64,000 nt of DNA from positions 13,959-77,958 of the forward strand of contig JAJCZC010000023.1 of NCBI GenBank assembly GCA_029262575.1. Direction: 5' to 3'. This DNA comes from Candidatus Babelota bacterium. Lineage in GTDB: Bacteria; Babelota; Babeliae; Babelales; Vermiphilaceae. Under the pieces are notes generated by a model that had not been told where the DNA came from, made no database searches, and saw only the letters and a list, made by a program, of their open reading frames with translations. Shown here piece by piece: positions 33,222 to 35,659 of this stretch. Numbering within the stretch: the stretch's first letter is position 1; every line of letters begins with the position of its first letter. The translations under genes were made by a program, and so were the position numbers.

Positions 33222-35659
33222 TTTATACTCCCTATAACAAATGCATCTTGACCCGCAAATTTTAAACCATCCAAAATTGTATCTTTATGCTCTTTTGCAA
33301 TAACAAGCACAAAGCCAATACCCATATTAAAGGTACGATGCATCTCAATTTCAGAAACATTGCCTAATTGCGCCAACCATGTAAAAATTTTAGGAGCTTG
33401 CCACGCATCCCAATCAATACTAACGGTGCAATCTCTTGGCAAGACACGTGCAACATTTTCAACCAATCCCCCGCCCGTGATATGTGCCGCAGCTTTGATG
33501 TTTCCTTGTTGCATGAATGGCAATACTGCTGAAACATAAATCTTTGTTGGTATCAACAACTCATCAAACAAAGTTTTGCGTCCTTCGACAAGCTCAGGAT
33601 GAAGGGTAGGTAAAAATGGCGGTTTTTCATGTAAATCAACATTGTTTTGATCGATAATATAGCGCACCAATGAAAAACCGTTACTATGCAAACCAGATGA
33701 AGTTAAGCCAATCAAAATATCGCCATTCTTTACTTCATCTGTTTTGGGCAGCATTTGTTCACGTTCAACTGCCCCAACAGCAAAACCGGCAACATCATAA
33801 ACTCCCGTTTCATAAATACCGGGCATTTCAGCAGTTTCGCCGCCAATGAGTGCTGCGCCTGCCATTTTGCATCCGGCAACAACACCTTTGATGATTTCTT
33901 GCGTGGTATCTTTGTGCAATTTTCCTGTTGCAATATAATCAAGAAAATAGAGCGGTTCTGCTCCGTGCGTTAAAATATCATTAACGCACATTGCAACAAG
34001 ATCAATGCCAATGGTGTCATGTTTACCAAATTGCTGTGCCAATTTTAATTTAGTGCCAACACCATCAGTTCCGCTGACCAAAATGGGATCTTTATAGCCA
34101 GCTTGTTTTAAATCGAACAAACCGGCAAAACTCCCAACATCGGCTAAAGCACCTTTACGTGCAGTTGATGCAACTAAGTTCTTAATGTCACGCACAACTT
34201 CATTGCCAAGATCAATGTCAACGCCCGCAGTTTTATAACTGACCGTTTGCGAGGGATTTTTTATTTTATTTTTGTTAATAAGCGGATAAATTGTATTATT
34301 CAAAAATGACATTACTTGTTGTGTTGATCGCCCTGACATATTTGTGTTTGCCAACATTGCATCAAGCTCTTTCTGATCGATAGGAATCTGTGCATCTTGA
34401 GCAATGCGTTCTAACAAATCATTATGCTCTTCACCATCTTGCAAAAGCGCACTTGTAGCCATGCTATGTTGCCGTAAACGCTCATGTATTGTTTGGCGAT
34501 CGCCACCCTTTTTGACACAATGCATTAGAATTGTTTCAGTGGCCAAAAAAGGAAGCGCTTTTTTATAATTGCGTTGAATAACTTTTTCGTTAACTTGCAA
34601 GCCTTGTGCAATGCCAAGCACTAAATCAAGAATGCCATCAATGGCCAAAAATGCTTCGGGTATACACATTCTGCGATTTGCTGAATCATCTAATGTCCGC
34701 TCAAACCATTGGGTTGCTGCCGTATAGGTGGGGTTTTGTCCCAAACTCATCACATAACGCGCAAGGGAACAAACGCGCTCATTGCGCATTGGATTACGCT
34801 TATATGGCATTGCCGATGAACCAATCTGTTTTGCACCAAATGGTTCTTGAATTTCATGCATAAAGGCAAGCAATCTCAAATCGGTCGACATTTTATGCAC
34901 ACTTGTTGCAATACTTGTGAGCAGATTTAATATGTGTGCATCTTGCTTGCGCGTATAAGTTTGCCCACTCACCGACACCACTCGTTCAAAACCAAGCGCT
35001 TTGCAAAATGCACGATCTAGCTGTTCAACTTTTTCGTGATCACCATCAAATAATGCCAAAAATGATGCCTGTGTTCCCGTGGCACCTTTGGCACCTAATG
35101 CGTGCAAACGCTGTGTGCAATGTTCAAGTTCTTCAAAATCAAACAACAGATCTTGCAACCAAAGGCACATGCGTTTACCCACCGTTGTCGGCTGCGCAAT
35201 TTGCAAATGAGTGAACGCCAAACAGGGCATATCTTTATAATCATGCGCACGTTTTGAAAGCGCCTCAATGCAATTGAGTAGTTTTTCTTTGGTAACTTGT
35301 AGCGCCTGCTTAAAGATGATCAGATCTGCATTATCGGTGATCATGCATGATGTGGCACCCAAGTGAATAATCGGTCGCGCCTTTGGACAATCATCACCAT
35401 AGGTGTGCACGTGTGCCATCACGTCATGCTGAAGCTCTTGTTCATATTTCTGTGCTTTTTGGAAATTGATGGTGTGCAAATGGTCTTTGAGTTCATCAAG
35501 TTGTTCTTGCGAAATATCGACACCAAGCTCTTTTTCTATTTCTGCTAATGTTAACCAAATTTTACGCCACGTACTAAACTTGTGTTGATCGGAAAACAGT
35601 TCACTCATGCGCGAACTTGCATATCGTTTACCCAATGGCGATTGATACTGTTTGTTCAT
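33218..35659 (-). CDS. purB-purM: fusion of adenylosuccinate lyase (ADSL-type) and AIR synthetase
   Basis: 813 aa. Residues 1-~470 PurB (SPLGKRYAS, HDVMAHVHTYG, IIHLGATSC, GSSAMPYKRNPMRNER, WFERTLDDSANRR). Residues ~480-813 PurM (YKTAGVDIDLGN, SGTDGVGTKL, DLVAMCVNDI, GGETAEMPG, AHITGGG). Confidence 0.9.
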   Translation of the reverse strand: MNKQYQSPLGKRYASSRMSELFSDQHKFSTWRKIWLTLAEIEKELGVDISQEQLDELKDHLHTINFQKAQKYEQELQHDVMAHVHTYGDDCPKARPIIHLGATSCMITDNADLIIFKQALQVTKEKLLNCIEALSKRAHDYKDMPCLAFTHLQIAQPTTVGKRMCLWLQDLLFDFEELEHCTQRLHALGAKGATGTQASFLALFDGDHEKVEQLDRAFCKALGFERVVSVSGQTYTRKQDAHILNLLTSIATSVHKMSTDLRLLAFMHEIQEPFGAKQIGSSAMPYKRNPMRNERVCSLARYVMSLGQNPTYTAATQWFERTLDDSANRRMCIPEAFLAIDGILDLVLGIAQGLQVNEKVIQRNYKKALPFLATETILMHCVKKGGDRQTIHERLRQHSMATSALLQDGEEHNDLLERIAQDAQIPIDQKELDAMLANTNMSGRSTQQVMSFLNNTIYPLINKNKIKNPSQTVSYKTAGVDIDLGNEVVRDIKNLVASTARKGALADVGSFAGLFDLKQAGYKDPILVSGTDGVGTKLKLAQQFGKHDTIGIDLVAMCVNDILTHGAEPLYFLDYIATGKLHKDTTQEIIKGVVAGCKMAGAALIGGETAEMPGIYETGVYDVAGFAVGAVEREQMLPKTDEVKNGDILIGLTSSGLHSNGFSLVRYIIDQNNVDLHEKPPFLPTLHPELVEGRKTLFDELLIPTKIYVSAVLPFMQQGNIKAAAHITGGGLVENVARVLPRDCTVSIDWDAWQAPKIFTWLAQLGNVSEIEMHRTFNMGIGFVLVIAKEHKDTILDGLKFAGQDAFVIGSIK
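33581..33602. repeat. single arm of the small palindromic repeat inserted in frame in the PurM domain
   Basis: TCCTTCGACAAGCTCAGGATGA differs at one position from the arm at 47634-47655 (TCCTTCGACAGGCTCAGGATGA). On the coding strand it is translated as ...LHPELVEG... Confidence 0.55.

What the first reader, a model, noticed from the sequence alone, without database searches (positions are those of the whole stretch)
33581..33602. Repeat arm inserted in frame inside the essential PurM domain (RPE-like selfish DNA in a coding region)
TCCTTCGACAAGCTCAGGATGA inside purB/M differs at one base from the MITE arm at 47634-47655. It is read through in frame as ...PPFLPTLHPELVEGRKTLF.... Compared with my recollection of E. 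coli PurM, this falls in the variable stretch before the conserved IPTKIYV strand, where this protein appears ~10 residues longer. This is the phenomenon described for Rickettsia palindromic elements, which insert in frame into protein genes. Here it is seen with a different repeat family.
Basis: partly seen in the sequence, partly recalled or inferred. Interest (0 to 1): 0.6.

Follow-up and report, generated by a model that had tools for sequence, protein, structure and literature searches.

The report
Hairpin repeat unit inserted in purM
A 24-base unit of a short hairpin-forming DNA repeat was inserted in frame into a working purine-synthesis gene of an intracellular Dependentiae bacterium, adding eight amino acids to a surface loop, and the same repeat, found in many bacterial phyla, has done this to other conserved enzymes as well.

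Summary
Window 33581-33602 matches the repeat arm at 47634-47655 at 21 of 22 bases (none expected by chance) and is read in frame as HPELVEG inside a PurB-PurM fusion.

It is an insertion. One relative (85% nt identity) carries the arm at 22/22. Another (80%) lacks exactly 24 nt. Fourteen further orthologs lack the eight residues. The gene stayed under purifying selection (dN/dS 0.09), and the insert lies in a low-confidence coil of a good AlphaFold model.

It is not a lone case. In the same genome HisRS has an independent +24 nt insertion (LRQAQG frame) and photolyase has an older, decayed one. MurE and UppP in other Babeliales, MetH in a Bacteroidota genome and PcrA/UvrD in a Dehalococcoidia genome carry in-frame one- or two-unit insertions.

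The "MITE arm" is really a hairpin with a conserved 13-nt loop (TTCGACARGCTCA) and covarying stems. It occurs in many phyla and in 92 of 261 Dependentiae genomes (0-112 copies). It is absent from Rfam, Pfam, NCBIfam and the searchable literature. The mobilising enzyme is unknown, and RAYT does not co-occur.

The outcome resembles Rickettsia palindromic elements, but the element is different, far smaller and far more widespread.

The parts
33218..35659 (-). 813-aa PurB (adenylosuccinate lyase) - PurM (AIR synthetase) fusion gene that hosts the insertion
   Evidence: ORF. Pfam Lyase_1, ADSL_C, AIRS, AIRS_C. dN/dS 0.086 against L003.
33581..33604 (+). Inserted 24-nt unit (TCCTTCGACAAGCTCAGGATGAAG on the + strand). 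On the coding strand it is CTT CAT CCT GAG CTT GTC GAA GGA = L686-H-P-E-L-V-E-G693. The boundaries are uncertain by about 2 nt.
   Evidence: Exactly 24 nt absent from L004/L005, present at 22/22 in L003. Absent from 14 orthologs. An 8-residue gap opposite it in human GART AIRS 2V9Y.
33584..33596 (+). Conserved 13-nt loop TTCGACAAGCTCA of the hairpin unit, closed by TCC/GGA
   Evidence: Loop invariant across phyla, with covarying closing pair and varied complementary stems.
47632..47756 (.). Complete two-arm (MITE/REPIN-like) member of the same family, intergenic between two minus-strand ORFs (46983-47606 and 47765-48682)
   Evidence: Inverted arms 47632-47670 / 47718-47756, 39 nt, 82% complementary. 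ORFs.
47634..47655 (+). Left arm, consensus 22-mer TCCTTCGACAGGCTCAGGATGA
47733..47754 (-). Right arm, the same 22-mer in inverted orientation

Best explanation
A single unit (about 22 nt plus 2, 24 nt in all) of a proliferating hairpin repeat was inserted into the purM part of the purB-purM gene in the common ancestor of this genome and its relative L003. This happened after that ancestor split from the L004 lineage. The repeat unit is the stem TCAYCC/GGRTGA around a conserved 13-nt loop, TTCGACARGCTCA. The unit's length is a multiple of three, and it has no stop codon in four of its six frames, so the reading frame survived. Eight residues (LHPELVEG) were added to a surface coil between two helices of the AIRS C-terminal domain. 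The enzyme tolerated this, and the gene has stayed under purifying selection since. The same family exists in the genome as solo units and as inverted doublets (MITE/REPIN-like). It comes and goes quickly between close relatives and has hit other genes in the same way. Shown here: the insertion, its polarity, its size, its location in the fold, selection on the host gene, recurrence in other genes and phyla, and the hairpin-with-conserved-loop anatomy. Inferred: that single units are themselves the mobile entity, and that a trans-acting factor recognising the loop moves them. That factor is unidentified.
For: 21/22 match, none expected. L003 carries the arm at 22/22, L004/L005 lack exactly 24 nt, and outgroup L002 has the short form. 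14 of 14 other orthologs lack the 8 residues. An independent assembly, P0121, also has HPEPVEG. HMMER puts an 8-residue gap in 2V9Y at the site. In the AF2 model (pLDDT 86, pTM 0.88) the insert is in coil 209-233, and the only internal pLDDT<50 segment is 225-229. dN/dS is 0.086 for the gene and 0.124 for the PurM domain at dS 0.76. A second independent event of exactly +24 nt is in HisRS, compared with the same-genus ortholog and 28 others. An older decayed copy in photolyase is shared with G001 only. Copy number is patchy: 17 of 41 relatives and 92 of 261 in the phylum, 0-112 copies, 0 in same-genus G001, control 0. Hairpin evidence: closing pair CG 59 / UA 57, 64.5% of cells paired against 33-43% when slid, 0 of 500 shuffles as high. 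About 60 loops not selected by their stems are flanked by many different complementary triplets. In-frame one- or two-unit insertions occur in MurE and UppP of other Babeliales, and in MetH (+33 aa vs 1MSK) and PcrA/UvrD (+30 aa vs 1PJR) of other phyla.
Against: No transposase or other mobilising function was identified. Y1/RAYT presence does not track the repeat. No target-site duplication is visible. The exact ends of the 24 nt cannot be fixed because the flanks have diverged. The unit hairpin in the coding copies is thermodynamically weak (z -0.55 and -0.8). Larger two-arm insertions in other genes show that whole elements can also enter coding sequence, so a single arm could in principle be a remnant.
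Confidence: 0.8

Rival explanations
1. The 24 nt are the remnant of a complete two-arm element that was inserted and then lost its second arm and spacer by an in-frame deletion.
For: Complete two-arm or MITE-sized members are found in frame in MurE (G013), UppP (G035), MetH (Ulvibacter) and PcrA/UvrD (Dehalococcoidia). Most copies in this genome are inverted doublets.
Against: Two independent events, in purM and in hisS, are each exactly +24 nt. Each contains one complete unit and no trace of spacer or second arm. Solo units are also common between genes, in this genome and in G019, G035 and G013.
Confidence: 0.13
2. The hairpin inside purM has been kept, or homogenised, for a nucleotide-level reason, such as an mRNA or DNA structure with a regulatory role or gene conversion from other copies. 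It would then not be merely a tolerated passenger.
For: Third-codon positions across 12 codons spanning the insert show 0 differences between this genome and L003, against a gene mean of 3.85. Only 1.25% of windows are that low. L003 retains the exact 22/22 consensus although dS = 0.76.
Against: This is a single locus with one comparison, so the statistics are weak. The 24- and 38-nt windows are not exceptional on all positions (16% and 11% of windows). The hairpin in the coding copy is weak. Intergenic copies show no orientation bias relative to transcription (22 vs 29). The photolyase copy has decayed.
Confidence: 0.1
3. The long form is ancestral and L004 and the other orthologs lost the segment (deletion rather than insertion).
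For: This stretch of PurM varies in length by a residue or two among distant orthologs.
Against: It would require the same loss in the outgroup L002 and in 12 distant AIRS domains, or an ancestral segment that happens to equal a mobile 22-mer at 22/22. Human and bacterial structures lack the segment.
Confidence: 0.02
4. Chance resemblance or an assembly artefact.
For: None found.
Against: 0 matches in shuffles. Reversed-pattern control 0 in 261 genomes. Three independent assemblies carry the insert (own genome, L003, P0121) and two lack it (L004, L005).
Confidence: 0.01

Closest known systems
Rickettsia palindromic elements (RPEs; Ogata et al. 2000, as summarised in PMC10969869)
   Same: A repeated, palindrome-forming selfish element inserted in frame into conserved metabolic and housekeeping genes of an obligate intracellular bacterium. 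The host protein is kept functional and the insert sits at a structurally permissive site.
   Different: According to the review, RPEs are about 150-bp whole elements in ten Rickettsia families. Here the purM and hisS inserts are single 24-nt hairpin units (8 aa). The element is defined by a 13-nt loop and not by a long palindrome. The family is found in many phyla, not one genus.
REP / REPIN elements mobilised by RAYT (Y1) transposases
   Same: Units of 20-40 nt that form a hairpin, occurring as singlets and as inverted doublets, with highly variable copy number between relatives.
   Different: In REPs the stem is conserved and families are species-specific, with a GTAG or CGTC tag (PMC3733652). 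Here the loop is conserved across phyla and the stems vary. No tag is present. Y1 transposase presence does not track the repeat.
Bacterial MITEs found within genes (QMITE1/2 of Coxiella, ERIC, Anabaena MITEs)
   Same: Non-autonomous small repeats with inverted ends that sometimes overlap or extend ORFs in frame. The 47.6-kb element and the UppP insert look like this.
   Different: QMITEs are 150-400 bp with direct repeats of 2-11 nt and are lineage-specific. No direct repeats are seen here. The purM insert has a single arm. The core motif is shared between phyla.

Membership tests
Rickettsia palindromic elements (RPE) | In-frame insertion into conserved protein-coding genes with the ORF preserved | tested here: met
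   purM, hisS and phr in this genome; murE and uppP in relatives; metH and pcrA/uvrD in other phyla.
Rickettsia palindromic elements (RPE) | Whole palindromic element of roughly 100-150 bp | tested here: not met
   The purM and hisS inserts are 24 nt, a single hairpin unit.
Rickettsia palindromic elements (RPE) | Sequence membership in RPE-1..10 / restriction to Rickettsia | not tested
   No RPE sequences were compared. The host is Dependentiae and the motif occurs in many phyla, so family membership is very unlikely.
Rickettsia palindromic elements (RPE) | Insert located at a structurally permissive (surface) site | tested here: met
   In the AF2 model the insert lies in coil 209-233, with pLDDT<50 at 225-229. 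The HisRS site is a length-variable turn among relatives.
MITE | Terminal inverted repeats bounding a short non-coding element | tested here: not met
   The purM insert has one arm only. The 47.6-kb element does have 39-nt inverted arms.
MITE | Target-site duplication | tested here: not met
   No direct repeats flank eight complete two-arm copies or the purM and hisS inserts. Divergence limits the power of this test at the coding sites.
MITE | A related autonomous IS with the same ends | not tested
   No search for an IS carrying these ends was made.
REP/REPIN-RAYT | 20-40-nt hairpin units occurring as singlets and inverted doublets in many copies | tested here: met
REP/REPIN-RAYT | Co-occurrence with a RAYT (Y1_Tnp, PF01797) | tested here: not met
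   The genomes with 37, 23, 17 and 15 copies have no Y1_Tnp, and G038/G039 have Y1_Tnp but no copies.
REP/REPIN-RAYT | Conserved GTAG or CGTC tag next to a conserved stem | tested here: not met
   The consensus TCAYCC-TTCGACARGCTCA-GGRTGA has neither tag. The loop, not the stem, is the conserved part.

The most novel reading that the evidence does not exclude
The hairpin with the 13-nt loop TTCGACARGCTCA is a pan-bacterial, horizontally spreading minimal mobile module of about 24 nt. It would be moved by an as yet unidentified factor, possibly host-encoded and conserved, that recognises the loop. Because the unit is a multiple of three and open in four frames, it would act as a general generator of 8-residue (or, as doublets, 24-33-residue) loop insertions in conserved proteins across bacterial phyla. 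That would be a far broader and smaller-grained version of what was thought to be a Rickettsia peculiarity.
Probability: 0.3. Interest if true: 0.85.

Novelty: new variant of a known kind. Interest (0 to 1): 0.64.

Why it matters
In-frame colonisation of protein genes by selfish repeats has mainly been documented for Rickettsia palindromic elements. This result shows the same outcome in another phylum of intracellular bacteria, produced by a different and much smaller element. It also shows that the element's core, a hairpin with a conserved 13-nt loop, is shared by many phyla and has entered conserved enzymes (PurM, HisRS, photolyase, MurE, UppP, MetH, PcrA/UvrD). If that generalises, a fraction of the short loop insertions seen in bacterial protein alignments has a specific, recognisable DNA origin. 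The motif could then serve as a marker for dating insertions, for cleaning spurious ORFs from annotation, and for finding whatever machinery moves it. The cross-phylum conservation of a loop with free stems itself needs explaining, since no curated RNA or protein family and no searchable paper accounts for it.

Tried and rejected
REP/RAYT system: rejected, because Y1_Tnp does not co-occur with the repeat.

Strand-specific RNA function: no orientation bias relative to the adjacent gene's transcription (22 sense vs 29 antisense over five genomes).

Replication-strand bias: an apparent block pattern was an artefact of truncated listing. Full lists and a circular runs test give P = 0.41-1.0 in four genomes.

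Target-site duplication: none seen (one search had a slicing error).

Known RNA family: none in Rfam at E<=10 on the element or at gathering score on eight cross-phylum loci.

Curated protein family built on repeat translations: none in Pfam or NCBIfam.

Literature: no paper holds the peptide strings, the 16-mers or the 13-mers, and the REP survey PMC3733652 lacks the motif.

Earlier scan notes by sequence or words: nothing.

- (longest ORF per locus) picked wrong genes and was redone with tblastn.
- (search for related loci with the fusion protein) returned only PurB homologs.
- One search failed on blast options and was redone.
- The genome behind L003 could not be searched.
- L075 (motif upstream of the real DAO domain) was rejected as a coding insertion.
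- L024, L048, L055 and L078 were not pursued, and L119 was scanned but stays ambiguous.

Full report
**Observation.** Window 33581-33602 reads TCCTTCGACAAGCTCAGGATGA. The arm at 47634-47655 reads TCCTTCGACAGGCTCAGGATGA and has an inverted partner at 47733-47754. Allowing three mismatches, these are the only three copies in the window, and none is expected from 100 dinucleotide-preserving shuffles. The first copy lies in an 813-aa minus-strand ORF (33218-35659) with Pfam Lyase_1, ADSL_C, AIRS and AIRS_C. This is a PurB-PurM fusion, and the copy is translated as ...PPFLPTLHPELVEGRKTLF....

**Is it an insertion?** The whole genome (1.67 Mb, 37.8% GC, 41 contigs) has 29 copies at two or fewer mismatches. 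Most are inverted pairs 56-350 bp apart, and several are solo.
- Two close relatives share the fused gene. L003 (85% nucleotide identity across the gene) has the arm at 22/22 and reads HPEPVEG.
- L004 and L005 (80%) lack exactly 24 nt at this point.
- The outgroup L002, an unfused purM from the same family (58% aa identity), has the short form.
- In a 16-sequence alignment only this genome and L003 have the eight residues.
- A third independent assembly (P0121) also has them.
- The best solved relative, the human GART AIRS domain 2V9Y (E 3.6e-108), shows an 8-residue gap at the site.

The parsimonious reading is one insertion in the common ancestor of this genome and L003. On the coding strand the insert is CTT CAT CCT GAG CTT GTC GAA GGA (L686-G693), with about 2 nt of uncertainty in the boundaries.

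**Is the host gene alive, and where is the insert in the fold?** Between this genome and L003, dS is 0.76 and dN/dS is 0.086 (0.124 for the PurM domain), so the gene has been under purifying selection since the insertion. An AlphaFold2 model of the PurM domain (mean pLDDT 86, pTM 0.88) puts the insert in a long coil (domain residues 209-233) between two helices. The only internal stretch with pLDDT below 50 is 225-229, which is PELVE. "Essential" is too strong, because only 2 of 41 related genomes have purM at all.

**Recurrence in this genome.** Scanning all copies against long ORFs found two more copies deep inside genes.
- Histidyl-tRNA synthetase (contig C2) reads the motif in another frame (KTLRQAQG). 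It is exactly 8 residues (24 nt) longer than the same-genus ortholog (84% identity, from a genome with no copies of the repeat) and than 28 other relatives.
- A photolyase (contig C35) has a degraded copy (HPEPVER) that is shared in decayed form with the same-genus genome G001 (HPDPVER). It is absent from G002 and all others, so it is an older event.

Two independent events of exactly 24 nt argue that a single unit is what inserts. The 22-mer is open in four of six frames, and three events used two of them.

**What the repeat is.** The lineage is Candidatus Dependentiae, order Babeliales (record titles). The 17-mer core occurs in 17 of 41 relatives and 92 of 261 Dependentiae genomes, at 0-112 copies. 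The reversed-pattern control is zero everywhere, and contrasts within genera are extreme, for example 82, 56, 0 and 0. That is the behaviour of something that proliferates and is lost quickly.

The degenerate 22-mer YCCTTCGACARGCTCAGGRTGA has exact matches in more than 119 genome stretches from Nitrospirota, Chloroflexota, Eremiobacterota, Bacteroidota, Alpha-, Beta- and Deltaproteobacteria, Verrucomicrobiota, Acidobacteriota, Elusimicrobia and a CPR genome. Across these only the 22-mer is conserved.
- The two end positions covary (CG 59, UA 57, UG 1, other 9).
- The hairpin register has 64.5% of cells paired, against 33-43% when slid, and 0 of 500 shuffles reach the observed value.
- About 60 further loops in the same loci were not selected through their stems. 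They carry the same 13-nt loop between many different complementary triplets: TGG/CCA, TGC/GCA, GGC/GCC, CAT/ATG, GTC/GAC, CAC/GTG.

The conserved entity is therefore a 13-nt loop (TTCGACARGCTCA, or its complement) in a stem that is free to vary. It has no Rfam family. Its translations hit no Pfam or NCBIfam family. No paper in the searchable library contains the DNA or peptide strings. Subscription journals are not covered, so prior description cannot be excluded.

**Recurrence elsewhere.** Solo copies from four other Babeliales genomes include in-frame copies in real genes (Pfam).
- MurE of G013 has about 24 extra residues relative to this genome's MurE. They are built from two hairpin units in opposite orientation joined by a 10-nt spacer.
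- BacA/UppP of G035 carries a roughly 200-nt two-arm element.

Among the cross-phylum loci:
- MetH of an Ulvibacter genome has 45 residues where E. coli MetH (1MSK) has 12.
- PcrA/UvrD of a Dehalococcoidia genome has 39 residues where PcrA (1PJR) has 9. Both extra segments carry the motif peptides.
- A type I restriction R subunit and a HutF-like amidohydrolase also hold the motif inside Pfam domains. These two were not checked against orthologs.

**Mechanism.** Shown: insertion, polarity, size, fold location, selection, recurrence, and the hairpin anatomy. Inferred: that the 24-nt unit is itself mobile and that a factor recognising the loop moves it. Tests for a mechanism were negative:
- Y1/RAYT transposases do not co-occur with the repeat.
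- There is no target-site duplication.
- There is no orientation bias relative to transcription.
- There is no replichore bias. An apparent pattern was a listing artefact.
- The unit hairpin in coding copies is weak (z -0.55 and -0.8), while intergenic and MurE copies with longer stems reach z about -2.

One unexplained point remains. Across 12 codons spanning the purM insert, this genome and L003 show no third-position difference, against a mean of 3.85 (1.25% of windows). That hints at a nucleotide-level constraint or at gene conversion from other copies.

**Comparison with what is known.** The outcome is that of Rickettsia palindromic elements, which the review PMC10969869 describes as about 150-bp elements inserted in frame many times in Rickettsia genes. 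Intragenic QMITEs of Coxiella are 150-400 bp with direct repeats. The present case differs in three ways: unit size (24 nt), the conserved loop in place of a conserved palindrome, and distribution across phyla. It resembles REP/REPIN elements in size and in its singlet/doublet organisation, but it fails the RAYT and tag criteria. I therefore class it as a new variant of a known kind.

**Limits.** The claim that the PurM domain is closest to animal GART rests on a length-restricted search and on small E-value differences in the PDB search, so it is left open.

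Noticed in passing
window 31893-37631 (purD, purB-purM, purF) and the surrounding purine genes: purM is found in only 2 of 41 related genomes, and purB and purM are fused here but separate in G009. The best solved-structure match of the PurM domain is the human GART AIRS domain, slightly ahead of bacterial PurM. Together these suggest a horizontally acquired purine island, possibly of unusual origin.
   Followed up: partly
window 43518-43661 and 51465-51629; L004:4791-5097: A second small palindromic family (arms TTTTGTCATCCTCGAAGAGGATCC..., resembling the first only at TCATCCT...CGAAG...GGAT). 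A copy sits between purBM and purD in L004/L005, where this genome and L003 have overlapping genes. This is a clean presence/absence difference.
   Followed up: partly
window 33572-33610 compared with L003: Synonymous positions across the insert are unusually conserved between two lineages with dS 0.76 (0 of 12 third positions differ; 1.25% of windows are that low).
   Followed up: partly
genome contig C40: 8704, 9359, 11751 (outside the window): Three tandem paralogous genes are each preceded by the motif immediately upstream of the ribosome-binding site and ATG (...CCCTTCGACAGGCTCAGGATGAaaggaaagatATG...). The repeat may therefore have been duplicated with the gene, or may supply part of the 5' untranslated region.
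   Followed up: no
L029, L050, L057, L066 (Eremiobacterota and Acidobacteriota loci): Here the motif forms tandem arrays of whole units about 26 nt apart, followed by repeated partial units (GCTCAGGATGACA...). This arrangement differs from the inverted doublets of Dependentiae.
   Followed up: no
L056 (Sphingobacteriales type I restriction R subunit) and L086 (HutF-like amidohydrolase): The motif is read in frame inside Pfam domains (Helicase_C / ResIII; Amidohydro_1). These are probably further coding insertions but were not compared with orthologs.
   Followed up: partly
L119:~7220-7330: A TPR protein whose linker reads ILRQAQDEVGGQAQDEVGGQAQDEV...HPELVEG. Partial units of the repeat seem to have expanded in tandem inside a coding region.
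   Followed up: no
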